Of a stretch of 64,000 nucleotides of DNA, positions 30,228 to 58,699 are shown one piece after another. Below the pieces are notes generated by a model. That model had not been told where the DNA came from and did not search any database. It worked only from the letters and a program-made list of their open reading frames with translations. The stretch covers positions 32,001 through 96,000 of IMG/VR virus record IMGVR_UViG_3300027763_000034; one strand, given 5' to 3'. This DNA is from a virus. The stretch's first letter is position 1; each line of letters opens with the position of its first letter. Position numbers and translations under genes: made by a program.

Positions 30228-30482
30228 ATCTTAATTGTAGCATTTGTATTTTAGTCGACTGCTATTTCATATTTCTAAAAATGTTAATATATTTTTATTA
30301 TGTATGATACATACCTAAAAACAAAACGGACATTTGGGATAGACCGCACATATTAAGCGTGAATGTGTCCTATCTCACAGGATAATTCTAAGATTTATTC
30401 CGACACGCCGAGAGATAACTTGATAAATGTCAGTCCCCTAGTGTAGAGTTATCTTATAACAACAAACGAAAGGAGTCACACA

Positions 30483-33013
30483 ATGACTCAACTTACAGAA
30501 ACACTATACAGCACTATTGTGCACGACTTCCATAATGGTGGGGTCAAGTCCTCTTATGGACTCAATGCCTATACACGCAAGGCTCTATTGCGTGACCTAC
30601 TCTCTAGCAAGGCTTGCTATTGCATAGAGTGCGTGTGTGAGGTAACTCACACCGCATAAGGCTCACGCTACGGCGTGTCGCCTTGATAATGTCAGCCCAC
30701 TAGGCTACAATACTTACTATAACTACTAACGAAAAGGATAGAAAATAAAATGAAGATAACTTACTCACTATGGGACGGCGCTCAACTACTAGGCGTGGAT
30801 TTCACCGCTAATAGCGCAGACGAAATGAATAAGGTCGTAGCAGACCTAATGAAAGTTTCTCGTAATGTCGTAGCACATATGCGAAAGGTAGAGCAGAACT
30901 AATGTCATACGCATACTCATACCAAACTAACTCAATAGATAAATATAACTCTATTCAATCAGATGTCGCAGACGCATACGCATACCTTGATGAAGAAGAA
31001 ACAGAGCAACCCCCTGTTGATGATTTTGATGATGTAGATGATGAAGAATTGGCGCAAGTATTCGCACTAAGTTGGGATAACTAATGAACTTAGAACTAAA
31101 CGGATATGGTCTATGCCTAGATAGCGATTGGTTCTATGTCGCACTAGATTGGAAACTAATAACACTAACCGCCCTAGTGGTAATCGCCTATAAGATTTAT
31201 AAGAGAAAGAAGAATAAGTAATGACTACTAATCGCCTACTAACTACCCTAGTGCAACTGGGTATTGGTATCCCCGCCCTGCTTATGCTACGCCTTGCTAT
31301 AAAAGACTTCTTAGAGAATGGACTAGATTAATGAAATCGGAATTAGAGAGAGATTTAGAAATCAAAGAAAGTTTTATTGATTTACTAAATGATGTTTATC
31401 CTACTGTAAAAATCGGTTACTCTACATTCACACCCGCCGAGATTTTGGAGTGTTGCGATCCTATCGCTTTTTCTATCGGACTAATTGAGCACCAAGATTA
31501 TTTAGAAGAATTAGAAGAAGAATAACGGCGTGTCGGCTTGACAATGTCAAGCTGGCCCGCAAAGGCACGGGGTCGGGCGTGTCGTTACGGGCTTTGCATA
31601 GAACCCCTAGAATTTTGTGATTTTTATCACATAGGTTGAGCGTCTCAGTATTTGGATTTACTGGCTAGTAATTATCTTATGTCAGTGGGTTCGTGTATAA
31701 TGTCTACTATAACAACAACGAAAGAAGGTCAATTCATGAACCTAGATGAATTCAAGGCGCATGTTATCGCCACCCGTCAAGCAAGCAAGGCAGAAGCCTT
31801 GTCAGTGCTATCTGCTACAATGTCAGTATCAACAACAACGAAAGAAGGAAAGTAATGTCAGCAAATGTTTACAATGTAACCGATTTACTAATCGGAAAAA
31901 CTTATCGCTCAAATTCCGTAACTGGAGAAATTATCTCAGCGGAAATTCACCCGCAAGCAATTTGGTATGAAGGCGCAGAAGCGTATCGTGTCCAAATTAG
32001 AAAAAATACTGGCGGTTATACTTATCGCAGTTTGGCGGTAAATAAATGAACACAATGATTGACGAAAATGAATTTTATACAATTCACGAACCAACTTTTA
32101 TGTGTTGTGATGAAAGCCAATTTCGTTATGTGTGTAAAGCACACGGCGAAAGTATGGGTTGCTACTTTTGCGAATTTGACTACTCTAATGATTGCGAGGA
32201 ACAACACTAATGGGATACATTGAAATTTTCCGAATGGATAACGAAGGTGCTGGCTGGGTAGATTTATCCGAAGCAACACCCGATGAATTATTCAACATTG
32301 AATTAGGTCTAGTCAATGAAGGTGCGTTTGACGGCTCTTTATTTATGAATGGGGAAAACGAATGAGCGAAATTGCTGGAATGTGGATTTGCTCTAATTGC
32401 GATACTCTCGCCATTGTGTCAGTGGAAACTGATACAATACTTGTAACACAATGTAAATGCGTAACTAACGAAAGGGAAACTAATGAATAAATACACTTTT
32501 GGCGTTTGGCTAGACATAGACGCAGAGGATGAAAATCAAGCGTTATCTTTATTTGATGAGGTTGTAAAGAAAAATCCTTTTGTTTCAGACTCTTATTGTT
32601 TTGAATGGAAAGAGGTTGCTAATGTATAAAATAACTCTAGCCTATGACGGAAATGCCCCACACTGGCAGGGCGATTACTATGATGAAATGGAAGCGTGGT
32701 CAGCGTTTTTCAAATTCACCGACTGGGGATTTGCTGATGAATTCTCAACTGTAAATATTTACACTCCCGAATTGAAATGCTACACAAAAAACTTTTATCG
32801 TAGCGGAATGGTGGTAGCAAAATGATGACACGCAAAGACTATGTGGCAACGGCAGAAATTCTAAAGTTTGCTAGCGACAAAACGCACCCTGCTTTATTTT
32901 CTAAAATCGTAAATGATTTTGCTGAAATGTTTGCGAAAGATAATGAGCGATTTGATGTAAAACGATTTCACGAAGCGAGTGGATACAATGTTCCTAAACT
33001 CACTTCAAGATAA
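30483..33013 (+). CDS. Array of small (40-70 aa) early-type hypothetical ORFs, e.g. 30483-30659, 30750-30902, 30902-31084, 31331-31525, 31855-32049, 32822-33013
   Basis: Tightly coupled ORFs (TAATG overlaps) behind repeated promoters and RBS. Confidence 0.6.
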
Positions 33014-33255
33014 GGTAAAACGAATTCAGGAATTGCGTCGCAGTAATGCGGCGCAACCTGTTCGTAATAAAAAAAAATACACACGCAAGATCAAACATAA
33101 AAATAAACTTGACAATTAGCCAGCTGGCCCGCAAAGGCACGGGGTCGGGCGTGTCTTTAAGGGTGTGATCAATATCACCCTGGAAATTTGGGCCAGGATT
33201 GGAATATGTCGGTCCATTCTGCTATACTTGCCATTCAACCAACGATTGGGCTCCA

Positions 33256-33975
33256 ATGAAATTAAAACGTTCTAATGATAGAAAGGTGGCTAACCTTGTC
33301 ACAAAAAATGGAAAGCAAGCCGCAATTGCGAACACGTTCGGATTACCTGCAGGAAAGAATTATTCATGCCCTGGTGCCACTAGTATTTGTGAGAGTGTTT
33401 GCTACGCAGGAAAACTTGAAAAGTTATTCCCAGGAGTAAAAACTAATCTGCTACACAATTGGGATCTTCTGCGTAATGCGGATATGGATACAATGCTTAT
33501 TCTATTGGATGAGATGATTGTTGAATTTATTGCTGATTGTGAAAAGAAAGACGCTCCTAAATTATTCCGTATCCACTGGGACGGCGATTTCTTCAATGAT
33601 ACTTATACCTATGCCTGGAAAGTAATTATTGAAAATCATCCCGATGTGCAATTTTGGGTTTACACACGTGTAAAGTCTGCAGCGCTTATTCTAAAGGATG
33701 TATCTAATCTATCTCTTTACTATTCCACCGACGATGAAAATAAAGAAATAGCATTCGATTTGAAAACTAATTCTAAGGTCCGCCTTGCTTACCTAGGCAA
33801 GACATTCGCTGCAACCGAAGACACAATGAAAGAGTTGACTGGTAAGCCTGGTGCTAAGTGTCCTGAGAATATGAAGAGTATTCCACTTATCTCTAGCAAT
33901 GGGTCCGCCTGCGTATCTTGTGGCCTATGTGTATACGGTAAAGCGGATATTAGATTTTCTGCGAGTAAAAAATAA
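33256..33975 (+). CDS. GP88-like protein (radical-SAM-related Cys motif)
   Basis: CPGAT..C...CYA, RIHWDGDF, FWVYTR, C..CGLC; start placed after the promoter at 33207. Confidence 0.7.
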   Translation: MKLKRSNDRKVANLVTKNGKQAAIANTFGLPAGKNYSCPGATSICESVCYAGKLEKLFPGVKTNLLHNWDLLRNADMDTMLILLDEMIVEFIADCEKKDAPKLFRIHWDGDFFNDTYTYAWKVIIENHPDVQFWVYTRVKSAALILKDVSNLSLYYSTDDENKEIAFDLKTNSKVRLAYLGKTFAATEDTMKELTGKPGAKCPENMKSIPLISSNGSACVSCGLCVYGKADIRFSASKK

Positions 33976-34307
33976 TGTATGACGTTATCGGATCCATTCT
34001 TGGAATTGGATTAATTGCATTCTTGTGCTCACCAATTGTGCTAGCAGTGTACATGTGGAATGGTGCAAAATTTGATGATGATAATGATGGAATAGAAGAT
34101 TTACCTAATCGTTGGTAACGGCGTGTCGGCTTGACAAAGTCAAGCTGGCCCGCAATATTGTGGGGGGTTATCCACAGGCTTACGGGAGTTATCCACAACC
34201 CCTGGAATTGTGAGTATTATCACAAAAGCTGCGACACGCCCATAATGGATTAGGTAATGTCAGTGGCAAATGCTATAATACTCTTATCCAACAACGAAAG
34301 GTAACAA

Positions 34308-34777
34308 ATGACACCAGTAGAACACTCACTCAAATTCGTAACTGAGTTTGACGAAACACACCCTATCGCAAAACAATTTCTAAACTTAGATGAACAATCA
34401 CAAATTACAATGCTAGAGTCAATGCTAAAAGATTTATTGGTATCTGCTATTCAACCAGTAATTGACCAAATAAATGAAAATGGCTCTTACGCAATTCTAA
34501 AGGTGGCTAACTAATGGGATACAATACAGCGTTAGATTTAGCAGACTTAGATTTAGAACAAGGTATTGCTATTCACTTACAAAGTAATCATTACCCGCCC
34601 GTTCCTTATTCTATGGTGAAGCCGTGTATCGATGCTATCGATGCTTGGTGGGATGGCGATAGCGATAAACTGATCGAAATGCCTGAAGGCGTATCTTATC
34701 GAGGAGATAAGTTTGCCCCCGCTCACGCAATAATTGACCAACACCACTTACACGCTTGGCTACAAGAAAGTGATTAG
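34308..34777 (+). CDS. Two small hypothetical proteins (34308-34514, 34514-34777)
   Basis: Coupled ORFs with AACGAAAGG RBS. Confidence 0.65.
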
Positions 34778-35217
34778 CATCACACAATAACTTTCTCAAA
34801 TAATGAGATAGGGCTAGACTAATGTCAGACCCCAATGCTACAATACTACCTAACAAAGAAAAGAGGCAAAAATGACAATAGAAGGAAAACTCTATCAGGT
34901 CGGCGATTTATTCACCAGCCTAAAGTCAAAAAAGACAGGTGTTATCAAAGAGATACACCCACAGGCATCTGGCTCGGTGCGTGTGCTACTGGAACTACCT
35001 AGCAAGGAAACTCGCTGGACTTCAGTATCAGCCAAGACACTACTTGGCTAATAAGACGGAGGCATACACCATAATCGGGTGCTAAGCCACGAAACAGGGA
35101 CAGTTTAGGAGAGTATCTAGTCCAATGTCGTAAGTAAGAACTCTCCCCCCTTCGGGGGAAATGTCAGACCCCCCTGCTATACTATCCATAACAACAACCA
35201 ACGAAAGGTAATACAAA

Positions 35218-35634
35218 ATGAGCAGAGCAATAACAGTAAAGGTGGCAACACCAAAGGTAATCAAGGCACTAGAAACTCGTCTAGCAACACTAGAAAAAGA
35301 CTACGCTAGTCAAACAGCAAATGAAGCAAAGTTCCAAAAGGCACACGAAGCGTGGAAAAAGGAAATTGGTAAGTGGGCTATTGCCAACTTCTCAAAGTCT
35401 GAAAACCTACGCACAAACTATCGCTCTTGGAACAACACTCTCAATGTTGATTTTGACATCATCACAAAAGAGGGAACTTTTCCATCAGAACCTGAAAAGG
35501 ATTTTGAGGTTATCCATCAGCACAGTTATCGTGAGATGAAAGAGGACATCACCAATGCTCTCACAATTCTCAAAATGACAGATGAGGAAACAGTAAATGC
35601 TTCTACAATGAAGCAGATTGCTAAGTATCTCTAA
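35218..35634 (+). CDS. Hypothetical protein
   Basis: ORF with promoter 35162 and RBS 35199. Confidence 0.7.
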   Translation: MSRAITVKVATPKVIKALETRLATLEKDYASQTANEAKFQKAHEAWKKEIGKWAIANFSKSENLRTNYRSWNNTLNVDFDIITKEGTFPSEPEKDFEVIHQHSYREMKEDITNALTILKMTDEETVNASTMKQIAKYL

Positions 35635-35682
35635 ATAGGTTTTGGGGGGTTAGCACACAAAGTCTAGACACCTAAACCCAAA

Positions 35683-35709
35683 CAACCTGAGTAAGTTGCC
35701 AAACTGCTC
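35683..35709 (+). ncRNA. H-type pseudoknot motif, copy 1
   Basis: CAAC-CTGAGTAA-GTTG-ccaaac-TGCTC. Confidence 0.55.
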
Positions 35710-35741
35710 TCCTTCGGGAAACTACTAACAAAGGTAATACA

Positions 35742-36002
35742 ATGGCAAATCGTTTCAGAGTAGAAATCTACGATGCTAACAAAGCAAATGACATCACGAT
35801 TTATTCGGATCAAGGTGTTGATAAAGAGTATCTAACTGAATTAGTATTCAGTAACATCAGAAACTTTAGCGGAAAAATAAATGCTTATGTTTTTGATAAC
35901 GTAAAGAAAAAGAAAACAACTGCGATGTTTCTTGATGAGAGCACAGTTGAGTTTAATAAAAATCTAATTAGCAATGCTAAAAAGGTAGAGGTGGGGATTT
36001 AA
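35742..36002 (+). CDS. Hypothetical protein
   Basis: ORF with SD aaaggt. Confidence 0.6.
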   Translation: MANRFRVEIYDANKANDITIYSDQGVDKEYLTELVFSNIRNFSGKINAYVFDNVKKKKTTAMFLDESTVEFNKNLISNAKKVEVGI

Positions 36003-36179
36003 TCTCCAGCTCGGCCCCCGCTTTTGGGGGGTTATCCACAGGTTTACGAGTGCTTGTGGATAACCCTGAAAGTTTGTGAGAATGATCACACCGCACAATT
36101 CGGACAAATGACTAACTAACCTAGACAATGTCAGTGGCAGATGTTATACTTATGACTAATCAAACGAAAGGAAATAAAA

Positions 36180-37184
36180 ATGGCTCATAATCTAGAAATG
36201 GAAAATGGCGAAGTTGCATTTGCACTTCGTGGTGCTCCTGCTTGGCACAATCTCGCTAACCGAATCTTTACACAAGATGAGGAAGTTACAACCGCTACAA
36301 TGCTTGAAGAGGCAAAGTTAGCAAATTGGAATGTTCGTTTATCTCCAATCACTGAGCACATTCCAGAATCTTGGAATGATGTTTCTACCGCATCTCTTGT
36401 CATTCGTGATAACCCATTCAATAAGGGCGTAGATGTTCTCGCAACTGTCGGCAAGCGTTACAAGCCTGTGCAGAATGAAGAATTATTTGCATTCGCTGAT
36501 GCAATTCACGATGCTAATGCTGATTGCCGTTGGGAATCTGCTGGCTCATTGAAAAAGGGTAAAGTAGTTTTCGGAACTGTAGACATTCCCCGCACAATGG
36601 TATTAGACCCACAAGGTGCTAATGACCAAACTAAACTCTATCTAATTGTATGGACATCACACGATGGTTCTGTTGCTGTTCAGGCAGCCGTTACACCCGT
36701 TCGTGTTGTATGCCAAAACACACTAAACCTTGCAATGAAGAATGCTAAGCAATCTTTCAAGATTCGCCACACGCAATCTGTTGAAGGTCGCATTCAGGTT
36801 GCTCGTGAAACTCTTGGAATGGCGCTTGGCTATTTCGATGAGTTCGAAGTTCAAGCAAAAGCACTTTATGCTCAAGCAATTACTGATGCTGAATTCTCTA
36901 AGTTGATTCAGACAATCTATCCTAAGCCTGAAAAAGATGCTAAGGGTGCAATCAAGAAGTGGGAAAATAAGGTCGTTCTAATTGATGACCTTTATCATAA
37001 CTCACCAACTAACGCTACAATCAAGGGAACTAAGTGGGGTGCGTTCAATGCACTAACTGAGCGCCTTGATTATTATCGTTCAGGTCGTGGCAATGGCGAA
37101 ACACTTATGGCGGGTGCATCAGGGTTCGACCCAGTTCTAACCGCAGAAAAAAATAAGTTGTATCGTATGGTTGCAACTTTCTAA
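36180..37184 (+). CDS. DUF932 / TIGR03299-like phage-plasmid protein
   Basis: AWH.L, Y.PVQNEE.F, ESAGSL..G..VF, SHDGS, TPVRVVCQNTL, T.WGAFNA.TE. Confidence 0.85.
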   Translation: MAHNLEMENGEVAFALRGAPAWHNLANRIFTQDEEVTTATMLEEAKLANWNVRLSPITEHIPESWNDVSTASLVIRDNPFNKGVDVLATVGKRYKPVQNEELFAFADAIHDANADCRWESAGSLKKGKVVFGTVDIPRTMVLDPQGANDQTKLYLIVWTSHDGSVAVQAAVTPVRVVCQNTLNLAMKNAKQSFKIRHTQSVEGRIQVARETLGMALGYFDEFEVQAKALYAQAITDAEFSKLIQTIYPKPEKDAKGAIKKWENKVVLIDDLYHNSPTNATIKGTKWGAFNALTERLDYYRSGRGNGETLMAGASGFDPVLTAEKNKLYRMVATF

Positions 37185-37196
37185 AAAACTAAATAA

Positions 37197-37225
37197 AAAT
37201 CCTGAGCAAGATTTAAAACTGCTCA
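37197..37225 (+). ncRNA. H-type pseudoknot motif, copy 2
   Basis: AAATC-CTGAGCAA-GATTT-aaaac-TGCTCA. Confidence 0.55.
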
Positions 37226-37237
37226 CAATTTTTTCTT

Positions 37238-37311
37238 GGTCTGTTAGCTCAGTTGGTTAGAGCGCTACCCTGTCACGGTAGAGGTCGACGGTTCAAGTCC
37301 GTTACAGATCG
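37238..37311 (+). tRNA. tRNA-Asp (GTC)
   Basis: Canonical cloverleaf; CTACC-CTGTCAC-GGTAG; GGTTCAAGTCC. Confidence 0.92.
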
Positions 37312-37415
37312 CAAAGCGCCCCCAAAGGTAAGGGATCAAAAAGTGTGTTACGAATCACAAAAAAAATCCCTGAAAGCTATTGTAAATGTCAGTGGGCTCG
37401 TGTATAATTCTCATC

Positions 37416-38072
37416 ATGACCAACGAACTAGTATCAACTAAGTATACATTTGCCTGTGACCCAGACGAATGCGATGTATTAATAGAACTAACATCATCTG
37501 ACGGATTTGGATTCCCGTCGGGTGTGACTGAAATCACTTGTCCTTGTGGCCGTAAGCCAGTCTTATTGTCAGTGGTCAATGCTACAATTGCTCCTATAAC
37601 CCAAACGAAAGAGGAAAAAATGGAACCAACAACAACACCAATCCCTGAGTCATATAACTCTAATCTATTGGTAACCTACAAAGTTATCCGTGGATTCTCA
37701 GATGCAGAATATGCAACTGATAAAGTTACAAGTCTTGAATGGGACTTACACAATGGACGTCAGGCACAGAAGCACAATGCAGTTCTCCAAGGCAAGATTG
37801 ATTCGGCTAAAGAAATTATCTGCGAGGCATATGCAGACTCACAAGACCAAGATACCTTGCGTGAAATTGCTGAAGCGCTTGGCATTGAACTAATCAAGGA
37901 AGTTGAATGGTCTGCATCTATTGAAGTTAGCGGAACATATTCTTTCAACATTCTTGAGAATGATTATGATATGGACCTTGAATCAGAAATTACAGATGCA
38001 ATCTTTGCTGATTCACATCACGGTAACATTGAAATCAATGACCAAGAAGTATGTAATGTGCGTGAGAACTAA
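37416..38072 (+). CDS. Hypothetical protein with in-frame internal start at 37620
   Basis: Leaderless start after promoter 37387; second promoter 37567 plus RBS 37604 inside the ORF. Confidence 0.6.
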   Translation: MTNELVSTKYTFACDPDECDVLIELTSSDGFGFPSGVTEITCPCGRKPVLLSVVNATIAPITQTKEEKMEPTTTPIPESYNSNLLVTYKVIRGFSDAEYATDKVTSLEWDLHNGRQAQKHNAVLQGKIDSAKEIICEAYADSQDQDTLREIAEALGIELIKEVEWSASIEVSGTYSFNILENDYDMDLESEITDAIFADSHHGNIEINDQEVCNVREN

Positions 38073-38988
38073 TGTACTTTGAGTTGACCGCTCCCGATAG
38101 GCTATCTCTTGAGATGGCTTATTGGGATGCACAAATCACAGGGCTCGACCCTGAATTTATGCCGCCATTGACATTCAACATTGGAACTGGTAGTATTGAG
38201 AAAGTTAGTCGCATTCGTGATAAGTATAATTTAAAAGAATCATACTGGTCAGACAGAGAAGCGACAGGATACAGGGAGAAGTAATGTCAGATTACAAAGA
38301 TGGATTTCAAGACGGGTATAAGTTTGCTCGTGAAGAACTAATGGAAAAGTTAGCAGAGATTGATATTGCTGACATTGACTCTTGGATCCTTGACCGTCTT
38401 TCAGAAATGATTGAGGGTGGCAACCTGTGATGGCTGAATGGCTTAAGTGTGATCAGTGTGCAGCTCAGGCAATGTGGGAAGCAAAGAAAGATGAGATGTC
38501 TCTTTATTTTTGTGGACATCATAAAAACAAACAGGGCGAGTCACTTGTGGACTGGGCCCATGAAATGGTACAATTACTAAACTACGAGCAAGAACAACAA
38601 CTAGCAAAGGCGGAATAAAATGGGCGACAGAGCAAACTTTGGATTCAGAGATTCCAAGGAAAATATTGTATTTTTATATGGACATTGGGCAGGGCACCGA
38701 ATGCTAGAGAATTTAGCGGACGCCGTGCAGATTGCACATCCACGTTGGAATGATGAAGCATATGCTACACGTATTGCTATCAGCCAAATGATTGGTGATG
38801 AGTGGGCTAGCGAAACAGGCTGGGGCATTAGTGTTAATCAATTGGCAGATAATGAACACAAGGTCCCAATTATTGATTGGAAAAATAAAACGTTTACGTT
38901 AATGGAAGAAGACCTGCAGACTGTAGTATTTAGTACAACCTTGGATGCATTTGTGGCCAAGTATTGTAGTCAACTAAGTATGGTATAA
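38072..38988 (+). CDS. Run of small hypothetical ORFs (38072-38284, 38427-38618, 38620-38988)
   Basis: Coupled ORFs; 38620 has MGDRAN...LYGHWAG, a phage-type motif. Confidence 0.6.
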
Positions 38989-38994
38989 TTAATC

Positions 38995-39145
38995 TAGGAC
39001 CTTGGTCCTGGTTTTAATACAGAAATGAAGTGGTGCGTCTAACTAGTCTACGGGCCAGGCGCTAAGTAAAGCGGTTTATTTCTTTCGTTGGAAATCAGCA
39101 GCCATATTCATTAACCCCCCAGCTTGATCTGGGGGGTATTTTTTT
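38995..39145 (+). ncRNA. Candidate ~150-nt sRNA antisense to the early-gene RBS
   Basis: TGGTATAAT at 38981-38989, 5' hairpin, TTCTTTCGTTG seed at 39080-39090, terminator 39114-39145. Confidence 0.55.
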
Positions 39146-39308
39146 GCCCACAAAAGAAATGAGGGTATCATATGTGTTTTACGGATGTCAAGTCAAAACC
39201 CTGAAAATCCCAAGCTTTGAGATCATGTGGCATGAATCACATGCATTTGCTCTTCCATATGTCAGTGGTCTGATATATAATTAGAACATATCAACGAAAG
39301 GATATAAA

Positions 39309-40082
39309 ATGCCAAATTGGTGTTACAACACATTAACTATTCAAGGACCTAAGTCTGAGGTAGATATGATTAAAGATAGATTGAATAAACCTTTTACATT
39401 AGCCCAAGAAACATTTGGTATGGGTGATATATCTACTATGGGATTTCCTACTAAGATTGAACAGGTATCTTATTCTAATCCCGTTTTTTCTTTTCATAAC
39501 ATCCACTCATATAAAGATGACGGAATTACTGATGAGGAATATGCCTGCCAGCCTACACGACTAGGAACAGACACTAGTGCTCCTGATTGGTTTGCTAAAG
39601 AAGTTGCACATGCTAAAACTCAGAAGGATTGGTATTCATGGAATACATCTAATTGGGGAACCAAATGGGATGTTGCTGTCCGTGATGAAGATGAATATCC
39701 TGAAACAGAATTACTTGAATATAAGTCAGAAGGTGATGACAACTGGGTTGTATATAAATATGAAACTGCTTGGTCACCTGCTGTAACTATCTTAACTAAA
39801 CTAAGTAATCTTGTTCCGAACTGCCTGCTCACATTAGAGTATGAAGAAGAAACAGGCTGGGGTGGGGAATATGAGATTGTCCGTGGTGAAGTAAAAGAAT
39901 TGGCTGAATGGGAAAACCGTTGCTATGCTTGCCAGTCTTTTGATACATTGAGTTATTGTGAAGATGACTGTGGAGAATTCTGCTCAGAATGTAATCAAGG
40001 CTCTTGGCAGGATGAAAAGGCAATGGCAGAATGTCAGACCCATAGTGTATTATTAGAGCCTAAAGAAAAGGTGGAGGCATAA
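39309..40082 (+). CDS. DUF1281/YubB-like ferredoxin-fold protein
   Basis: MPNWCYN.L, WY.WN..NWGTKWD, TAWSP. Confidence 0.7.
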   Translation: MPNWCYNTLTIQGPKSEVDMIKDRLNKPFTLAQETFGMGDISTMGFPTKIEQVSYSNPVFSFHNIHSYKDDGITDEEYACQPTRLGTDTSAPDWFAKEVAHAKTQKDWYSWNTSNWGTKWDVAVRDEDEYPETELLEYKSEGDDNWVVYKYETAWSPAVTILTKLSNLVPNCLLTLEYEEETGWGGEYEIVRGEVKELAEWENRCYACQSFDTLSYCEDDCGEFCSECNQGSWQDEKAMAECQTHSVLLEPKEKVEA

Positions 40083-41598
40083 TGGCAAGTTTCTTAGAAG
40101 ATGTAAATCAAATGGTAATTGACGCTGTATATCAAGAGATAGCAGAACAATTACTAGATGACTGGATTAATAATAATCTAAATGAAGGACAGTATTATGC
40201 AGATAAACAATTTGCACAAATGTCAGGAGATAAATTTATCTTTGAGCAATTTAATAAGTTCTATGAACTTAAAGAAGGAGACGATGATTATATGGAGTAT
40301 GACTTATGCTAGGTTATACTGAATCTGATCTAAATGAAATGATTAATGCTGTACATGACGCAAAGCTTTTCTATCTTAGGACCCCGTCCGATTTAATGGA
40401 TAAGTCTTTGCTAACTAATAGTTTGCTAAAGACAAATGATTTCTTGCAAGGACTATGGGCGGAGGGTTACTTTGACCACACTAACTAAATCTTCTAAGTT
40501 CCTAGAATATATGAAGATACATCTAATTAGTCTTAACCAGGACTTAGAAATGAATCCTGAATCTATCAATGTAATTGATATTCCAGGACAAATATATGCA
40601 ACCGAACATTTGTTGTCAGTGGCTACTGATATAATGAATGAAAACGAGAGGATATAAAATGAATTCAGAAGACATTGGGCTCCCGCCCCACTTGCAACGT
40701 TTAGTTAATGCAGGTGTTAATGGATTAGATATAATGCATGGCGAACTAAAGAATCTAATGTTGATTGCCGAAGAGCAATTGGCTTGGGCTCAGGCAATTG
40801 AAGATGAAACCGAAGAGGCAATGGATTCAATGGCACGTACAGAGGCGGAGGGACGACTAGATACTCTAGTTGAACTATATAAACTAACATATGATTTATC
40901 ATTTGCTATAGGAGAAAAGGAAGGGCAAAAAGTATGACATACGAGCCAAGTCTAGAAATCCTGGAAATGGAATACTCTTGCTCACCTGGAGGAGTAGATA
41001 CATTTGAGGTGTATGATAAAACAGATATACCTTTATCTGTACCAATATATGAGACTGAATCTTTGACGGATGCCGTGCTCTACTGTTATAATTTAGGGAA
41101 AGACTTTACTGTCAAGACATTAGCGGAATGGAATGAAAGGGAGTTAGCATATGAAGCCAGCCGATAAAGATAAACTAAACGAATGTTTAAAGATTCTAGA
41201 CACCACCGACCTTGGCTTGTCATTAGTATGGCTGTGGACATGGTCCACAATTAACAACATTTTTGAGGATGAGACCTACAAGCAGAACTGCACCATAGAT
41301 GACATGTGGGACCACCTCTGCGAGGCCGTGGAGGCTGGTATGGGCTTCTCCCTAGAGTACGGGGCGGAACAACATCAGGAAGACGTCCTTGAATGGATGA
41401 TGAATCGTGAGTACATTGTCGACACAATGTTTGAAGAAGAGGAAGAAGACGAAGATGAGGATGAGTGATCAATACATCGATGAGATCCTTAACAGGGCCC
41501 AACAGCTTTTGTGGGGCGGATCAGAAACAGAGAACATCGAAGCACACAACCTTATATCTAATCTAATTAAAGAAAGAGTAGAACAAGTTTCTAACTGA
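40082..41598 (+). CDS. Run of small acidic hypothetical ORFs (40082, 40306, 40436, 40638, 40934, 41151, 41461)
   Basis: Overlapping co-directional ORFs. Confidence 0.55.
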
Positions 41599-41687
41599 GG
41601 GCAAGATTTTTAGTTTACGGTGACTATTTACAAACCCGTGAAAAGTTGCTATAATTAAAGCAAACCGATCTAGAAAGGATCAAACAC

Positions 41688-41837
41688 ATGACAACAAAGC
41701 GTGAATATCTAAAGCAGCAAGGCATCACAGTAGGTGTACGTGGCCGCTTCTCAGGAGCAGCTAAGGTAGCTCTACAAGAAGCTGCAGCAAAGGGAATTAC
41801 ATTTACATCAGAGGCGCCTGCTAACAAGGCCAAGTAA
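41688..41837 (+). CDS. Stand-alone Lsr2-like DNA-binding domain (49 aa; below the ORF-track cutoff)
   Basis: MTTKREYLKQQGITVGVRGRFSGAAKVALQEA; TTTACA-N17-TATAAT promoter, GAAAGGA SD, downstream terminator. Confidence 0.6.
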   Translation: MTTKREYLKQQGITVGVRGRFSGAAKVALQEAAAKGITFTSEAPANKAK

Positions 41838-41843
41838 GCCAGG

Positions 41844-41883
41844 GACGGGGTTAGGGCTTCGTTGGTCCTTGACCCCGTTTCTT
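41844..41883 (+). terminator. Intrinsic terminator
   Basis: ACGGGGTTAGGG...CCTTGACCCCGT followed by a T-rich tract. Confidence 0.6.
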
Positions 41884-41919
41884 ATTTTTGATACAATAGA
41901 CAGTTAGGCGGAGGCGGAT

Positions 41920-42288
41920 ATGAAAACACCAGAAAGCAAAGTAGCAGAATCATTAGTTAATTTAATGGATGACCATTGGTTTAATCCAACAATGTTTGGT
42001 CGATATTTGGCAGAACAGCCAATGTATACACTTGACCGCATTATGGAAATGGTTGTATCGATTATATCAGAACAAGCAAAGATATATGATGTATATCTAA
42101 ATAGGGGTACATCGTCTGAAGGTCTATTACTAGCCAATGAACTGAATGAATGTATCAAAGCATATCAAGAAGATAATAGTTTAATTAATCTTAAGTTACC
42201 TTCTCGTTCCTACAAAGTAGGGACGGTTCCAAAGGAACCTAAAGTTAATATATTTGGATGGAAAGAAGAAACAGATCCATTCAGTTAG
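41920..42288 (+). CDS. Hypothetical protein
   Basis: ORF with GGAGG SD. Confidence 0.65.
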   Translation: MKTPESKVAESLVNLMDDHWFNPTMFGRYLAEQPMYTLDRIMEMVVSIISEQAKIYDVYLNRGTSSEGLLLANELNECIKAYQEDNSLINLKLPSRSYKVGTVPKEPKVNIFGWKEETDPFS

Positions 42289-42289
42289 T

Positions 42290-42840
42290 ATTAGGCATAT
42301 GACAATGAATAGATGAATGCCTGGTTAGATAGATAAACATATCTAGCCCAAATTATCCACAGGGTTATCCACATCCTGTGGATTTTTTGTATGCTGTGGG
42401 CATGTGGGCAACATTTTGCTTTTACGACACATGATCCAAATCCCTGAAATTTCTAGCTCATGGGCCAAATTTTTCATTTACGAAGCCTTGACAAAAATCC
42501 CTGAAAATGCTACACAATATGTCTAAATAGATAATTATACATATAGAATGTCGACAAATGTGTAGAGAATATGGCAAAATAAGCAAAAATCGCTCCATAA
42601 ATCTATTGACAAATATGGATCAATATGCTGCTATATATGGCTATTGACATTACGTTTAAGATGGGGTATGCTCAATTACATATGTATGTTTAACTATATA
42701 TAACTATAGTATATGATATGCTATCTATAGTATAAATTCTCCACTATGCTCCACTTTACTCCACTATATAAGCCTTCTAAGGGCTATATGAGGCTGGATA
42801 AATGGGAGGGGGATATAGGAGTTAGGAGCTAATTTATTGC
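42290..42840. other. Candidate replication origin / control region
   Basis: ORF-free convergent strand switch; DnaA boxes at 42353 and 42365; AT-rich tract; CTCCACT x3 at 10-bp period. Confidence 0.4.
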
Positions 42841-44932: not shown

Positions 44933-45514
44933 ATGATTACATTAAATCAATTAATTAAAGAAGCAAAAGATGCTGGACTTAACTACGCTGTATTTAAAAA
45001 CTGGCATCAGCCAACGCCGACAAGAAGAGAGATAGAGCCTATGTACGGCCCAAATGACATCTGGCACAATAGGCTTCAGCTTCAAGATAGAGTTGTACCA
45101 GCGTCAGTTAAATATTTTATGGATGAGGCTAATCAGGCCTACCCAGATACAGAAAATGATTTTTATATTTTATCAAATATATACTATAGAAATTTTTATC
45201 ATAACAGACCAGGATCTAAATTGCATAGAGACACATTTGATGTAGTTCATTTACAATGTACTGGTGTTACAAAGTGGGATATCGGTATAAAGGCGGAAGC
45301 ATTAAACGACCCAGCTTACTTAAGGCCACCAGTTGGTACTGAATGGGACTGGAGAGCAGAATTTACTGGGGACTATGAAACATTTATTCTTGAGCCTGGA
45401 GATGTAATTTGGTTTAACAATAAATCTTGGCATAGAACAGAAAACATATGTGACAAGTATTCGGTAGTCATGCAAGCAGGCACAGTAGATATTTCAGGGA
45501 GAAAGAGAAGATGA
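44933..45514 (+). CDS. Cupin/JmjC-like oxygenase
   Basis: LHRD..DV.HLQC.G..KW...LEPGDV.WF....WH. Confidence 0.7.
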   Translation: MITLNQLIKEAKDAGLNYAVFKNWHQPTPTRREIEPMYGPNDIWHNRLQLQDRVVPASVKYFMDEANQAYPDTENDFYILSNIYYRNFYHNRPGSKLHRDTFDVVHLQCTGVTKWDIGIKAEALNDPAYLRPPVGTEWDWRAEFTGDYETFILEPGDVIWFNNKSWHRTENICDKYSVVMQAGTVDISGRKRR

Positions 45515-46071
45515 CAACGCTAGCAGAATTTATAGATCAAGCAAAGAAAGATAATTTGCCATACGCTGTATTTAAGAATTGGCACCATCCTGTCCCATCC
45601 TGGAAAGAATTTGAAGACATAATCGATCCGCAGTCTACTGGTGTTAGAAAGTTTATTCAGAATGTACCTCTTCCAGAACCAATGCAATACTTTCTTGATG
45701 AATCAAAGAAAGCTTACCCTGATATTGAATATCAGTACTATATATTTGAAGGCAAGAGATACAGAAACCTAGACTCTAATTGGCCAGGAGAGCCTTTGCA
45801 CAAAGACCCATATGATATCATTCATTGGCATTGTAGGGGCGCTACAGAGTGGCAGGTAGGCCTATATGGTGAGATGAGTGGTGTTCCAAAAGAGTTTAAG
45901 TATGAAGAGCGTCAGGGATGGGAATGGCAAACTGCTTGGACAAGAGAGCCAGAAACACTAATGCTTGAGCCAGGAGACATTTTGTGGCTTAGAAAAGGTA
46001 CTTGGCATAGAACACAAAACCTATCAGAAAAGTACTCTATAATTTTTGATGCTGGCCCACTCTGGGAATAA
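45511..46071 (+). CDS. Cupin/JmjC-like oxygenase (paralogue of the preceding gene)
   Basis: LHKD..D...W...LEPGDI.W...TWH; shared YAVFKNWH.P. Confidence 0.7.
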   Translation: MTTLAEFIDQAKKDNLPYAVFKNWHHPVPSWKEFEDIIDPQSTGVRKFIQNVPLPEPMQYFLDESKKAYPDIEYQYYIFEGKRYRNLDSNWPGEPLHKDPYDIIHWHCRGATEWQVGLYGEMSGVPKEFKYEERQGWEWQTAWTREPETLMLEPGDILWLRKGTWHRTQNLSEKYSIIFDAGPLWE

Positions 46072-46072
46072 A

Positions 46073-46648
46073 TTAAAAATCAATTAAAAATAAATCAACA
46101 ACAATTCTTGATCCGCTAATAAGTTTATTTACATAATGCATTTTTTCAGAATTAAATACAATTGCGTCACCAGCAGATGGCTTTATGACTATCTCTTTTT
46201 CAGATTGAAATACTATTTCTCCGCCTTCAAAATCACCAGATAGATATAGCAGTATGCTTATTTTTGGACTTCCAGCAAGACCCTTTAATTCACCACTTGG
46301 ATAATTTATGACATCGTTATGTATGCCCATTTGCGACCCTAAATCCCATGTTGTTATGTGATAAAGTTTTTTTGAATGCTTATATTTATTTTCATTTTTA
46401 CTAAATTGATTTATATATAAATCTGCTGCTTGTAGCATTATATTATCTATATACTGATAGAGATCCTGTTGCTCTTTAATAGAGGGGTCGACAGGCTGAC
46501 GAATCCCAATTCTTGCCTGCTGACCTTTAATATTTTTTTTTGAATTTAATATATAAGATATTTCTTCTTTTGAAATTAAATTTTGTATATGGATTCCAAA
46601 ATCACTTAAAATTTTAATTTCTGCGGATTCATTCAACTTTAACTCCAT
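46073..46648 (-). CDS. 2OG-Fe(II) oxygenase
   Basis: HND...YLSGDFEGGE...HYV...R. Confidence 0.8.
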   Translation of the reverse strand: MELKLNESAEIKILSDFGIHIQNLISKEEISYILNSKKNIKGQQARIGIRQPVDPSIKEQQDLYQYIDNIMLQAADLYINQFSKNENKYKHSKKLYHITTWDLGSQMGIHNDVINYPSGELKGLAGSPKISILLYLSGDFEGGEIVFQSEKEIVIKPSAGDAIVFNSEKMHYVNKLISGSRIVVDLFLIDF

Positions 46649-47177
46649 AAAATAAAATTATATTTGCTCTTTCTCCATCAATGACTTCATTAACTGAGTG
46701 AGGGTAATCCCTATCACCTTTAAAGAATATCAATGTGCCAGCCTGTGGCTTGTATGCAGTGCTGTCTGCCTTATCCCCAGAGTTGTTTTCATAAAAATGA
46801 ATCTCTCCGCCTTCATAATTATCAGTTAAATATAGTAGGGCAGAGTAATAGTTATCTTCGTATCCATCAACACCGCCGTATCCATCTGCATGCCAACCAA
46901 GACCTTCACCTTTTTGTAAAACTTGATAGTTCATTCTATCTAAAAAGATCTCTGATTTTTTAAAACCAAACTGAGCAGATGTGGAGCTTTCTATCATATT
47001 AATTAAATCGTGTACAACATGGTCTTCGATGTTACCATCTTTTGATATGTCTAATGGCTTAAGGTAAACATTCAAAAGGCCTCTTGGATTTAAATATGAC
47101 CTAGGCCTTAAGTAATCATTTAAGTATTTAGCTGTCTTGGGTGATATGAAACCTTTAACTACGTTTGGCTGTGCCAT
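46629..47177 (-). CDS. 2OG-Fe(II) oxygenase
   Basis: WHAD...YLTDNYEGGE...HSV...GER. Confidence 0.85.
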   Translation of the reverse strand: MAQPNVVKGFISPKTAKYLNDYLRPRSYLNPRGLLNVYLKPLDISKDGNIEDHVVHDLINMIESSTSAQFGFKKSEIFLDRMNYQVLQKGEGLGWHADGYGGVDGYEDNYYSALLYLTDNYEGGEIHFYENNSGDKADSTAYKPQAGTLIFFKGDRDYPHSVNEVIDGERANIILFYGVKVE

Positions 47178-47179
47178 GT

Positions 47180-48245: not shown

Positions 48246-48246
48246 A

Positions 48247-48909: not shown

Positions 48910-48975
48910 TAATTTATCTCCAATATCTATTGTTGGGTGGATTATTGTCCTATAGGTATATTATACTATATTGGC

Positions 48976-56789: not shown

Positions 56790-58184
56790 CTAGTCCTCAT
56801 CGGAATGAATTTCTATATGAGTTAATTTAAGCAAAGTTCCCTCTAATTCAGCCTTGACCCGAATCAATTCCTGAAGGGCTTCATAGTACTTATCTTTCCA
56901 TTCATTTAAATCTTTTTCTAATTGGTACAATTTAATCTGAAGGTCCTTGATTTCTAATAAAAGCTTATCGTGGGCTTTTTCTGCCAGACGCTCTATTTTT
57001 TCCTTTTTAGATCTTCTGGCGCTAAATTGCGCTGTAAGCAGACCGCTGATAGCTGCTGCAAAGAGAGTTATTATTATCTCAGTTAGGGGAATATTCATTA
57101 TATGAATATTATACCGTAATATCTATATTAAATTAATAATTCAGAAGCCGTTATGTCTGGACCAGCGTATTTCTTTTTAGAAATAAACTCTTTTACATGA
57201 TCTGATCCGTATTGTCTTCCTGCCAATATTACAGTCCATCTTGGCTCAAATTTATTGTCTGAGCATGTCTTGCATAGCAACAAATTAATTGGAAGTATTA
57301 CTGATTTCTTTAATGATAATTCATTTTTGCTCTTATTACAAGAATAACATAGCACTTTATCCATTATTCCACCGCCTTTGTCATTGAAGATTTGCAGTTA
57401 GCAAAAAATCTTTCTGGGTCAAACCTGTAGCTGTCATGAGAGAAAAGTAGTGCGAATTGTCTTACCAGCTCATTATAAACTTCTTCTGTCATTCCTTCTT
57501 TTGCCTCAGACAAAATTCTTGCTGCAATATAGTACTGATGTCTCTCAAATACACACTCTCCAGCCATTGGTGCATGAAGCACTTTTTCTTCAATATCTCC
57601 ATTGGTCATGTACAAAGTAACTGTTAAAAACTTTTTTGCAAATCCCCAGTCTTGATATTCATTATATGCATTTACTGCATCTATTGGACTTGAGAACCTG
57701 TATAAAGATCTGTGCGGAGTCTCTCCATCTCTTGATATGCCAACCATGAATGTATTGTTTTTTGTTTTATCATATCTGTTTGCATGCCATTTTTCTAAAT
57801 TATCTACTATGTTTTGATTTACTGGAGCAATCCTATGAACTCTTGGTTGCTCCTTTGGCTGATCGTAGTTCATCTTCTTCCTCCTGGCTTTCCTTCAAGC
57901 TCTACTCTTACTCCGTATGATTCCAAAATATTTTTTACCATTTCTATATATTCTATTACTCTAACTCTCATTGAGCCATCGTATTGTGAAAAATTATCTT
58001 CATATAGCCTAATTGCTAAAAATTCTGGATACTTTACTATATCCATTTCAAGTGTTGGTGTTGGTTTTTTTATCTCTCTTATTTTAAGAGCCATTTCTTT
58101 GTTGTAGAATGTTGGTTTGTTTGGCTCACCAGTCCATTCATTGATTCCATACTTAAAGTGATCTTTATTCTTATCAATAAACAT
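56790..58184 (-). CDS. Four hypothetical ORFs (56790, 57128, 57364, 57870)
   Basis: ORF track; coupled starts and stops. Confidence 0.55.
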
Positions 58185-58485
58185 GCTTTTCCTTTATACG
58201 TCTCCAGACATCTTTTGTCTTATGGGCATTTCTTAGTTTATCATGGGAGCCAGAGTTTAAATAAACCCCTCCCCAGACACCATAATCACTATTGGCAACC
58301 CCATTATCATAGCATAGCTTTATGACTGGGCATGACAGGCATGCCTCATCAATACTTTTTGCTATGTTAACATCAGCCTCATATTTATCAAAAAACAGAT
58401 TAGTATCCATTCCAAGGCACAACGCAAGCTTATACCAATCTACATTATCTTCATCTACGTTTAAACTATTTAAAATATTTGACAT
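58174..58485 (-). CDS. whiB: WhiB family Fe-S transcription factor
   Basis: W..LALC...FF...C..CPV...C...GVWGG; probable start MSNILNS. Confidence 0.85.
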   Translation of the reverse strand: MSNILNSLNVDEDNVDWYKLALCLGMDTNLFFDKYEADVNIAKSIDEACLSCPVIKLCYDNGVANSDYGVWGGVYLNSGSHDKLRNAHKTKDVWRRIKEKHVY

Positions 58486-58699
58486 ATCGTTTTGGCAGTT
58501 TCCAGATTCCTTCACGGCTGACAGAAATCTTTTCTGCCTTACCCCAAGCATCTTTTCTATACATTCCCTTTAAGTCAGTATAGCCGCCACTATCTTTTTT
58601 CCAAATTACAAGATCATAGTTGTTCCAAAATGATTCTTGTATCTTTGTGCGAGATCTTTTAATAAAAATCTCAACACCTTTCTCCGTTAGATGCAACAA
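58466..58699 (-). CDS. Hypothetical protein
   Basis: FWNNYDLVIW...G.Y...WG. Confidence 0.55.
   Translation of the reverse strand: MLHLTEKGVEIFIKRSRTKIQESFWNNYDLVIWKKDSGGYTDLKGMYRKDAWGKAEKISVSREGIWKLPKRYVKYFK

What the first reader, a model, noticed from the sequence alone, without database searches (positions are those of the whole stretch)
31569..42506. Rigidly spaced tripartite element GGG-N13-TTACG-N15/16-CCCTGRAA, nine copies
Seen: TTACG (once TTAAG) at 31585, 33157, 34180, 36044, 37348, 39179, 41615, 42422 and 42478. Each is preceded by GGG exactly 13 nt upstream and followed 15-16 nt later by CCCT(G/A)RAA (CCCGTGAA at 41615). Spacer sequences vary freely. All copies have one orientation, lie at cassette boundaries, and are paired in the candidate origin. 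Conserved spacing with free spacers implies a protein reading three patches. Inference: phage recombination or cassette-shuffling sites, initiator/packaging or DNA-entry signals, or antisense promoters (TTTCAGGG-N15-CGTAA) for a phage sigma factor.
Basis: seen in the sequence. Interest (0 to 1): 0.72.

Follow-up and report, generated by a model that had tools for sequence, protein, structure and literature searches.

The report
Repeated promoter-like signal in actinophage
A 58-base DNA signal made of four short fixed boxes at rigid distances recurs nine times, always pointing the same way, at the head of gene units in one block of an uncultured freshwater actinobacterial phage. It is kept across a whole phage clade and looks most like a phage-specific promoter, but what reads it is unknown.

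Summary
Nine copies of (GCCC-N10-)GGG-N13-TTACG-N15/16-CCCTGRAA lie on the + strand between 31555 and 42506. A weight-matrix scan finds no other copy on either strand of the 116-kb genome, and shuffles expect none. More than 80 related metagenomic phage stretches carry 2-9 co-oriented copies; five complete relatives have 3-8, all within 10-12 kb. The box distances are rigid and the spacers do not base-pair, so this is read as duplex DNA, not as a hairpin. The spacers hold perfect DnaA boxes, CRP-like palindromes and a GGCGTGTCG motif at fixed offsets.

Each copy follows the preceding unit, in five of eight boundaries after a strong hairpin. Each precedes a PafBC-type (RecA-NDp-like) or sigma-A-like promoter. 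The first operon has none. A tandem pair heads a last non-coding unit that runs into an AT-rich region.

Best reading (about 0.4): a factor-dependent phage promoter scaffold. TTACG sits like a -35 box, the spacing equals 17/18 bp, and an AT-rich patch follows CCCTG. A polar boundary or operator array remains a serious rival.

An earlier follow-up in this scan (e1-5967093) found the same element in a related genome and left the same question open.

The parts
31555..31612 (+). Copy 1: GCCC, GGG (31569), TTACG (31585), CCCTAGAA (31605). Spacer 1 holds GGCGTGTCG.
   Evidence: 59 bits; a hairpin precedes it; CRP-like site at 31616 and NDp-type promoter at 31680 follow
33127..33185 (+). Copy 2: TTAAG variant (33157), 16-nt gap. 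A CRP-like palindrome (33164) sits inside spacer 2 and overlaps CCC.
   Evidence: 55 bits; NDp-type promoter at 33207 ahead of the GP88-family gene
34150..34207 (+). Copy 3: perfect DnaA boxes in both spacers, in direct orientation (34168, 34189).
   Evidence: 56 bits; a hairpin precedes it; CRP-like site 34209, NDp-type promoter 34258
36014..36071 (+). Copy 4: DnaA boxes in both spacers, in inverted orientation (box 1 at 36032-36040 on +; box 2 occupies 36055-36063 and reads on the - strand).
   Evidence: 58.5 bits; two hairpins precede it; CRP-like site 36075, NDp-type promoter 36129 ahead of the DUF932 gene
37318..37375 (+). Copy 5: starts 6 nt after tRNA-Asp. TTACG forms the centre of a CRP-like palindrome (37344).
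   Evidence: 52 bits; NDp-type promoter 37387
39149..39206 (+). Copy 6: starts 4 nt after a canonical terminator (39114-39145).
   Evidence: 32 bits; CRP-like site 39226, NDp-type promoter 39260
41599..41643 (+). Copy 7, the weakest: no GCCC, and CCCGTGAAA with one extra base. It is interleaved with a sigma-A-like promoter (first hexamer at 41627, second hexamer ending at 41655, 17-bp spacer) ahead of a 49-aa Lsr2-C-terminal-like gene.
   Evidence: 23 bits; in relative L070 the same sigma-A-like promoter lies just downstream of an intact copy
42406..42449 (+). Copy 8: first of the tandem pair, after a hairpin made of DnaA boxes followed by a T-run (42355-42389).
   Evidence: 34 bits
42462..42506 (+). 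Copy 9: second of the tandem pair. Spacer 2 holds a sigma-A -35 consensus hexamer, conserved in most of the pair regions. An NDp-like promoter (about 42549) and an AT-rich, repeat-bearing non-coding region (to about 42830) follow.
   Evidence: 31 bits
30364..31525 (+). First operon of the block. It has CRP-like sites (30364, 30636) and NDp-type promoters (30428, 30690) but no tripartite copy.
   Evidence: the same arrangement is seen in relatives
58174..58551 (-). WhiB-like (Wbl) gene. It marks the phage as an actinophage and is a speculative candidate for redirecting host sigma-A.
   Evidence: four-Cys motif, GVWGG turn, basic tail

Best explanation
The element is a clade-specific, orientation-dependent promoter scaffold at the head of delayed units in the phage's accessory, host-takeover block.

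Proposed geometry: TTACG(a) takes the place of a -35 box. CCCTGRAA plus the T-rich bases after it take the place of an extended -10 and melting region. The 15/16-nt gap equals a 17/18-bp hexamer spacer. GGG and GCCC, at about -50 and -63, are upstream contact points.

Proposed reader: host RNA polymerase, directed by a phage-made factor still to be identified, as with T4 MotA/AsiA middle promoters. The phage encodes no polymerase or recognisable sigma factor, and the host has no such motif.

The free spacers and the +1 region hold host regulator sites (DnaA boxes, CRP-like palindromes, GGCGTGTCG). All sit where a bound protein would exclude polymerase. Host state would therefore gate this promoter, and the same CRP-like site is helically phased to the downstream PafBC-type promoter.

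The first operon has no copy and would be expressed first. The tandem pair would fire into the AT-rich terminal region, as the tandem T7 promoters do at the T7 primary origin.

Shown here: anatomy, spacing, conservation, context.
For: 1. The TTACG-to-CCCTGRAA gap is only 15 (119 copies) or 16 (44 copies), with none at 8-14 or 17-24. GGG lies exactly 13 nt before TTACG in 163 of 173 copies.
2. No base-pairing exists between the spacers or around TTACG, so the element is read as duplex DNA.
3. The most AT-rich 7 bp of the 140-bp neighbourhood (0.79-0.84) lies directly 3' of CCCTG. There is no such patch beyond CGTAA on the other strand.
4. Every copy is intergenic and co-oriented with the next unit. 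Nearly all copies outside the terminal AT-rich region are followed by an NDp-type or sigma-A-like promoter on the same strand.
5. Strong hairpins or terminators precede the element at five of eight boundaries, which places it at the start of the next unit.
6. Regulator sites sit at fixed offsets inside the scaffold. DnaA box 1 starts 4 nt after GGG. Box 2 abuts CCC. The CRP-like palindrome starts 9-12 nt after CCC in 106 of 208 copies, otherwise inside spacer 2 or over TTACG.
7. All copies lie in one 11-kb block on one strand in this genome and in five complete relatives, with 0 control hits.
8. The first operon lacks a copy.
9. A conserved tandem pair lies upstream of an AT-rich region.
10. 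The rest of the genome uses ordinary sigma-A-type promoters.
Against: 1. The -10-like box lacks the canonical A at -11 in the register that gives 17/18 spacing: G in 91% of copies, hexamer TGAAAT. Alternative registers have only 60-80% T at the last position.
2. No copy stands as the sole promoter of a unit. A host-type promoter always follows, so the element is not obviously needed for expression.
3. No reader was found. Sigma-70 regions 2, 4 and 4_2 gave nothing above cut-off, and there is no WYL domain. No RNA polymerase appeared among the large proteins scanned.
4. The motif is not enriched in actinobacterial genomes.
5. Its distance to the downstream promoter is not helically phased, so it is not a classical upstream activator site for that promoter.
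6. There are no transcript data.
Confidence: 0.4

Rival explanations
1. Polar boundary or operator array. A phage-encoded DNA-binding protein or complex binds the four patches between units. It acts as an orientation-dependent roadblock or insulator that backs up weak terminators. Alternatively it acts as a shut-off operator that displaces host DnaA and CRP from the upstream regions of the PafBC-type promoters later in infection. Cluster A mycobacteriophage stoperators and eukaryotic TTF-I/Sal-box terminators work in a comparable way.
For: The element always lies between the end of one unit and the promoter of the next. It is absent before the first operon and doubled after the last gene. It never stands as the only promoter. 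It directly abuts or overlaps host regulator sites, so binding would compete with them. The motif is absent from host genomes, so a phage-made reader is expected. A Streptomyces phage with a homologous DUF932 gene has an analogous palindrome between terminator and promoter in each intergenic region of its terminal block.
Against: This reading does not explain the -35/-10-like 17/18 spacing or the AT-rich patch after CCCTG. A roadblock placed after an already strong terminator, as at 39114-39145, seems redundant. The tandem pair is itself followed by + strand promoters, so it does not close the block. No candidate multi-domain DNA-binding protein was identified.
Confidence: 0.25
2. Replication-, packaging- or DNA-entry-related protein binding sites. 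The full site is the tandem array in the AT-rich non-coding region, which is either an origin or the physical genome end of a long-terminal-repeat phage. The dispersed copies couple that function to the early block, for example as secondary origins, a polar fork barrier or entry pauses.
For: The terminal region holds 2-4 tandem copies with a conserved spacer 1. DnaA boxes lie beside them, and an AT-rich stretch and short direct repeats follow. DnaA boxes are built into two dispersed copies. Transcription converges on this region, and homologues of the DUF932 gene lie inside the terminal gene block of Streptomyces phages, so the block may be a collapsed terminal repeat. T5-like phages carry ordered DnaA boxes in the untranslated part of their terminal repeat, which has been proposed as an injection stop signal (bioRxiv 10.1101/866236).
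Against: Seven of the nine copies sit at the heads of ordinary transcription units and are tightly packed against promoter-regulator sites. This is unexplained by replication or packaging. Iterons and pac repeats are normally clustered, not spread over 11 kb. No initiator or small-terminase candidate was linked to the motif. The terminal-repeat idea is untested.
Confidence: 0.1
3. Recombination substrate for cassette shuffling, like the PeSL cassettes of T4-type phages. The repeated module serves mainly as dispersed homology, or as a recombinase site, that moves gene cassettes.
For: Relatives differ by rearrangements in the 31-33 kb part. One breakpoint cluster (39 ends) lies at 31500-31550, in the roughly 65-nt repeat that includes the first half of copy 1.
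Against: Equally large breakpoint clusters lie at gene boundaries without the element (32600, 33250, 34300, 34500, 40900). Copies at 36028, 39163, 41599 and 42406 show few or none. Selection keeps four short patches while the spacers diverge, which is the opposite of what homology-driven recombination needs. There is no hairpin of the attC type.
Confidence: 0.08
4. Antisense promoter on the - strand (TTTCAGGG-N15/16-CGTAA), read by an ECF-like sigma factor. It would make RNAs against the preceding + strand unit.
For: CGTA-type -10 boxes with a 16-17 nt spacer are typical of ECF sigma factors (background knowledge). The CCC-N10-GGG patch would form a small 5' hairpin.
Against: There is no AT-rich melting patch or purine-rich start region beyond CGTAA; spacer 1 is often GC-rich. 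The -35 part does not resemble the GGAAC or TGAAAC type. No sigma factor is encoded. No - strand genes or conserved RNAs follow.
Confidence: 0.05

Closest known systems
T4 middle promoters (MotA box plus sigma-70 -10, read through AsiA/MotA sigma appropriation), including those that form the T4 origins oriF and oriG
   Same: A phage-specific box replaces the -35 element. Host polymerase would be redirected by phage factors made from the first genes. Sites lie upstream of early units, often in tandem with host-type promoters. One class member sits before an AT-rich unwinding region. This comparison rests on background knowledge.
   Different: T4 middle promoters keep a good TAnnnT -10, and this element does not. 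No MotA or AsiA homologue was found. There are two further upstream patches (GGG, GCCC). Host regulator sites are built into the spacers.
T7 primary origin (tandem phage promoters 1.1A and 1.1B followed by an AT-rich region)
   Same: Two co-oriented copies of a phage-specific signal about 50 bp apart lie directly upstream of an AT-rich non-coding stretch.
   Different: T7 promoters are 23-bp contiguous sites for a phage-encoded single-subunit polymerase. No such polymerase was found among the proteins scanned. The Pfam RNA_pol genome search was uninformative because its controls did not ring.
PeSL cassettes (promoter-early stem-loop) of T4-type phages
   Same: A repeated regulatory module with a stem-loop lies between small early genes of a plastic region, and relatives differ by cassette content. 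An earlier follow-up in this scan (e1-5967093) named this as the closest known.
   Different: PeSLs carry ordinary sigma-70 early promoters and act through sequence homology. Here only four short patches are conserved, and breakpoints are not concentrated at them.
Stoperators of Cluster A mycobacteriophages
   Same: Many copies of an asymmetric site lie in short intergenic regions of an actinophage, all in one orientation relative to transcription.
   Different: Stoperators are contiguous 13-14 bp repressor sites spread over the whole genome of temperate phages. This element is a 58-bp, four-patch site confined to one 11-kb block. No repressor or integrase was looked for or seen.
Intergenic modules of Streptomyces phage NootNoot (Stanwilliamsviridae) terminal gene block
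   Same: It has the same unit design: GC hairpin, then a conserved site, then CGGACA-type repeats, then a promoter, then an A/C-rich leader ending in GAAAGG. A homologous DUF932 gene is present.
   Different: The conserved site there is a 15-bp palindrome (TGTCGGG/CCCGGACA), and the promoters are ordinary -35/-10 types. The tripartite motif is absent.

Membership tests
sigma-70-family promoter | Two conserved blocks separated by a spacer of 17 +/- 1 bp | tested here: met
   Gap is 15 (119 copies) or 16 (44 copies) only, which equals 17/18 bp between the hexamers TTACGn and TGAAAt
sigma-70-family promoter | A -10 hexamer with A at position 2 and T at position 6 (TAnnnT) | tested here: inconclusive
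   In the 17/18 register position 2 is G in 91% of copies. Shifted registers give A at 71-100% and T at 62-82%. An AT-rich patch is present.
sigma-70-family promoter | Intergenic and co-oriented with the downstream transcription unit | tested here: met
   True for all nine copies here and for the copies in relatives
sigma-70-family promoter | A cognate sigma factor or activator exists | tested here: not met
   No sigma region 2, 4 or 4_2 above cut-off and no WYL domain in the phage. No motif enrichment in 401 + 25 actinobacterial genomes.
sigma-70-family promoter | Transcripts start 5-9 nt after the -10 box | not testable with these tools
   No transcript data are held
PeSL-type shuffling cassette | Gene gain and loss junctions map to the repeat | tested here: not met
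   836 alignment ends from 460 alignments: clusters occur at most gene boundaries, and four of nine copies have few or none
Integron attC or other folded single-strand site, or RNA hairpin | Paired arms with covariation | tested here: not met
   Pairing of spacer positions is no better than shuffled partners in every register tried
Intrinsic terminator | Stable GC hairpin followed by a U-run | tested here: not met
   GCCC-N10-GGG is a 3-5 bp stem without a U-run. Separate stronger hairpins lie upstream of it at five of eight boundaries.
Host regulon site copied by the phage (as for the PafBC-type, CRP-like and DnaA sites of this block) | The same motif recurs in host genomes above chance | tested here: not met
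   10 hits against 8 control in 401 genomes. 6 against 2 in five small genomes. 8 against 5 in 25 small genomes with up to 2 mismatches. The one full match, upstream of ftsH in a 70% GC lineage, looks coincidental.
Stoperator array | Contiguous 13-14 bp site bound by the immunity repressor, genome-wide | tested here: not met
   The site is 58 bp long in four patches and is confined to 31.5-42.5 kb. The repressor was not tested.
Phage origin of the promoter-plus-unwinding-element type | Phage-specific promoter copies directly upstream of an AT-rich region | tested here: inconclusive
   The anatomy fits at 42406-42830 and in 16 pair regions of relative loci. Transcription converges on the region, however, and origin activity cannot be tested.

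The most novel reading that the evidence does not exclude
Freshwater actinophages of this clade use a previously undescribed promoter class. An unidentified phage factor, possibly the phage WhiB-like protein acting on sigma-A region 4, would retarget host RNA polymerase to a four-patch site. The free spacers of that site would serve as slots for host DnaA, CRP and a third regulator. One scaffold would then integrate several host-state signals and also fire the replication origin.
Probability: 0.25. Interest if true: 0.75.

Novelty: new variant of a known kind. Interest (0 to 1): 0.55.

Why it matters
This phage clade is very abundant in lakes. Its DUF932 protein alone has hundreds of near-identical metagenomic copies. 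Its hosts are hard-to-culture, genome-streamlined Actinobacteria.

The block carrying the element is wired to host regulators: PafBC-type promoters, CRP-like sites and DnaA boxes. If the element is a factor-dependent promoter, it would be a new example of polymerase redirection outside the T4 model. It would also give a defined DNA bait for finding the factor.

If it is a polar boundary element, it would be a new way for a phage to insulate small transcription units.

Either way it is a precise, conserved and testable signal. Lake metatranscriptomes that already exist could settle its direction and function.

Tried and rejected
1. Close or distant relatives among deposited phages: none, apart from a short DUF932 match to Streptomyces phages.

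2. Rfam: only the tRNAs and sub-threshold hits in 29-46 kb.

3. Hairpin, RNA or attC readings: rejected, because no covariation appears in any register.

4. Host sigma regulon: rejected at the stringency tested.

5. A full four-patch match upstream of ftsH in three high-GC actinobacterial genomes looked like the host original. Across 25 ftsH upstream regions the conserved motif is a different one. The match is confined to one narrow lineage (record titles of two matching MAGs: Frankiaceae and Mycobacteriales), it is single-copy, and that lineage cannot be this 38% GC phage's host. I treat it as coincidence, with a rough chance of 0.01-0.05.

6. Phage RNA polymerase: the 896-aa candidate has only an extensin-like repeat match. 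The other large proteins are DnaE-type polymerase, RecA, terminase, tail fibres and ribonucleotide reductase. The Pfam RNA_pol genome search had no working control.

7. Small early proteins: no DNA-binding family found. The atlas look-ups were uninformative.

8. Host identification through the reductase gene: it returned only mis-binned phage contigs.

9. Helical phasing between the element and the downstream promoter: absent.

10. Literature: no paper with this motif in a relevant context.

Full report
**Observation.** GGG lies 13 nt before TTACG (TTAAG at 33157). CCCT(G/A)RAA follows 15 or 16 nt later; the copy at 41615 has CCCGTGAA. Shuffled sequence gives 0.00-0.01 matches where 6 are found. 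A weight matrix built from relatives scores only these nine sites above zero on either strand of the 116,155-bp genome: 23-59 bits, next best -7.6. So the count is nine, all within 31555-42506.

**What the genome is.** The window is part of a complete 116-kb virus record. It has 38% GC, tRNAs, tail fibres, ribonucleotide reductase, a DnaE-type polymerase, RecA and a terminase. It also has a WhiB-like gene at 58174-58551 with the four-Cys motif and GVWGG turn. WhiB-like proteins mark actinobacterial phages. Thirteen + strand promoters between 30428 and 40614 fit the PafBC-dependent RecA-NDp consensus of Actinobacteria, TGTCRGTG-N8-TAnnnT. That lead came from earlier notes of this scan. No deposited phage is close. 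The clade is nevertheless very abundant in metagenomes.

**Conservation.** The exact pattern hits 109 stretches of IMG/VR. More than 80 of them carry 2-9 copies on one strand. Five complete relatives of 104-120 kb have 3-8 copies each, on one strand, within 10-12 kb, with no hit to the reversed control pattern.

From 208 distinct instances the consensus extends in three ways:
- a fourth patch, GCCC, about 14 nt before GGG;
- an A-run before CCC;
- a T-run after CCCTGAAA.

Without forcing the spacing, the TTACG-to-CCCTGRAA gap is 15 (119 copies) or 16 (44 copies) and never anything else between 8 and 24. GGG sits at -16 from TTACG in 163 of 173 copies.

**Not a hairpin.** Positions in the two spacers pair no more often than shuffled partners. 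This holds whether counted inward from GGG/CCC, outward, or around TTACG in four registers.

**The spacers are not empty.** Other sites sit at fixed offsets:
- Perfect DnaA boxes start 4 nt after GGG. A second box abuts CCC, in direct or inverted orientation.
- A GGCGTGTCG motif fills spacer 1 in another class of copies. It recurs, inverted, about 30 nt downstream.
- A CRP-like palindrome starts 9-12 nt after CCC in 106 of 208 instances. Otherwise it lies inside spacer 2, or with TTACG as its centre.

The distance from the CRP-like site to the downstream NDp-type promoter peaks at 34, 44, 54 and 64 nt, which is helical phasing. The distance from the element itself to that promoter is not phased.

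**Context.**
- Each copy starts within 0-30 nt of the preceding unit's end in most cases. It lies 6 nt after tRNA-Asp and 4 nt after a canonical terminator.
- Strong hairpins precede it at five of eight boundaries, with z-scores of -2.4 to -3.1.
- Nearly every copy outside the terminal AT-rich region is followed on the same strand by an NDp-type promoter. One locus has a sigma-A-like promoter instead.
- The first operon (30364-31525) has CRP-like sites and NDp-type promoters but no copy, here and in relatives.
- The tandem pair at 42406/42462 follows a hairpin built of DnaA boxes. Spacer 2 of its second copy holds a sigma-A -35 hexamer. An NDp-like promoter, further sigma-A-like promoters and an AT-rich stretch with short direct repeats follow, up to the ends of convergent - strand genes.
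- The pair recurs 47-57 bp apart in 16 pair regions of the relative loci.
- Elsewhere the genome uses ordinary sigma-A-type promoters.

**Direction.** The most AT-rich 7 bp in the 140 bp around the element (0.79-0.84) lies directly after CCCTG on the + strand. If T of CCCTG is taken as -12, TTACG falls at -35 to -31, the spacer is 17 or 18 bp, GGG lies near -50 and GCCC near -63. On that geometry:
- the CRP-like palindrome is centred near +4, or at -21 or -32 in the other two placements;
- the DnaA boxes cover about -46 to -38 and -25 to -17.

All of these are positions where a bound protein would exclude polymerase. On the - strand there is no comparable melting patch beyond CGTAA, and spacer 1 is often GC-rich.

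**Who reads it.** I found no reader.
- Phage: no sigma-70 region 2, 4 or 4_2 above cut-off and no WYL domain. No polymerase among the large proteins.
- Host, strict motif: 10 hits against 8 for the reversed control in 401 Actinomycetes genomes.
- Host, one mismatch: 6 against 2 in five small genomes.
- Host, full 16-base pattern with up to two mismatches: 8 against 5 in 25 small genomes.

The tallies include six unpublished genomes (G007, G015, G024, G030, G036, G043). None of them gave a hit that I use, and their loci were left out. So this is not a common host promoter or regulon site. A phage-made factor acting with host polymerase, or acting alone, is the remaining option.

**A false lead.** Three of the ten exact host hits were one conserved element between hpt and ftsH in 70-72% GC genomes. 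It had all four patches at the right distances. Across 25 ftsH upstream regions the conserved motif is instead GGTGTACCGTC. The tripartite form is confined to one narrow lineage and occurs once per genome. I regard it as coincidence.

**Recombination.** Relatives do differ by rearrangements in the 31-33 kb part, and one breakpoint cluster lies in the long repeat that contains copy 1. Equally large clusters lie at gene boundaries without the element, and four copies have few or none. Selection keeps four short patches while the spacers diverge, which does not suit homology-driven exchange. Cassette shuffling is at most a by-product.

**Verdict.** The anatomy is best explained by a factor-dependent, sense-strand promoter scaffold of delayed units, gated by host regulators and also placed in tandem before the AT-rich terminal region. 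In logic this is close to T4 middle promoters and to the promoter-type origins of T4 and T7 (background knowledge).

The weak points are the non-canonical -10, the constant presence of a second promoter downstream, and the missing reader. A polar boundary or operator array read by a phage protein explains the placement equally well, but not the spacing or the AT patch.

An earlier follow-up in this scan on a related genome (e1-5967093) reached the same description and also could not settle start, stop or block. New here are:
- the melting-patch argument;
- the fixed placement of host regulator sites;
- the hairpin-then-element order;
- the host-genome negatives;
- the breakpoint test.

Transcript 5'-end data would decide.

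Noticed in passing
window 30428-40614 (+): Thirteen promoters fit TGTCRGTG-N8-TAnnnT, the PafBC-dependent RecA-NDp consensus of Actinobacteria. Most are followed by a shared A/C-rich leader ending in GAAAGG. The rest of the genome has only one chance-like match.
   Followed up: partly
window 30364-39241 (+): Ten CRP-like palindromes (TGTGA-N6-TCACA, up to 1 mismatch) occur only in this block. Across the clade their distance to the NDp-type promoter peaks at 34, 44, 54 and 64 nt, with an extra peak at 49.
   Followed up: yes
window 31527-31535, 31577-31584, 34120-34130, 34228-34236 and relatives: A GGCGTGTCG motif (inverted form CGACACGCC) recurs upstream of, inside and about 30 nt downstream of the element. 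A CGGACA motif also recurs. Similar GTGTCGG/CCGGACA palindromes and CGGACA repeats fill the intergenic regions of Streptomyces phage NootNoot (L271). This suggests a shared, unidentified regulator.
   Followed up: partly
window 42300-42830: This is a non-coding region on which transcription converges. It holds three DnaA boxes that form a hairpin, the tandem pair, several + strand promoters, an AT-rich stretch and three CTCCACT repeats. It could be an origin, or the physical end of a collapsed long terminal repeat. The homologous DUF932 gene lies 1.4 kb from the left end of NootNoot.
   Followed up: partly
window 41688-41837 (+): A 49-aa basic protein with an RGR motif resembles the C-terminal DNA-binding domain of Lsr2 (judged by eye only). 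NootNoot has an annotated Lsr2-like gene in its corresponding block.
   Followed up: no
window 44933-49557 and L274:10100-10726, 14805-15638: There are many paralogous 2OG-Fe(II) oxygenase or JmjC-like genes, plus sulfotransferase-like and DUF6065 genes. This is an unusually large set of tailoring enzymes for a phage.
   Followed up: no
L275-L304 (ftsH upstream regions of Actinomycetes genomes): A conserved GGTGTACCGTC motif lies about 90-130 nt upstream of ftsH. In many genomes a GGAACA-N17-CGTT ECF-type promoter precedes it. A conserved GC hairpin lies next to the ribosome-binding site.
   Followed up: partly
L261:1450-1530, L262, L263 (Frankiaceae / Mycobacteriales MAGs): A single host locus between hpt and ftsH carries CCCCC-N6-GGGGG, N13, TTACG, N15/16 and CCCTGAAA, with spacers that differ between genomes. 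It matches the phage element in all four patches but is probably coincidental.
   Followed up: yes
window 59567-62257 (-): An 896-aa protein has no phage-family match and an extensin-like proline-rich repeat region. It lies next to the WhiB-like gene and two tRNAs.
   Followed up: no
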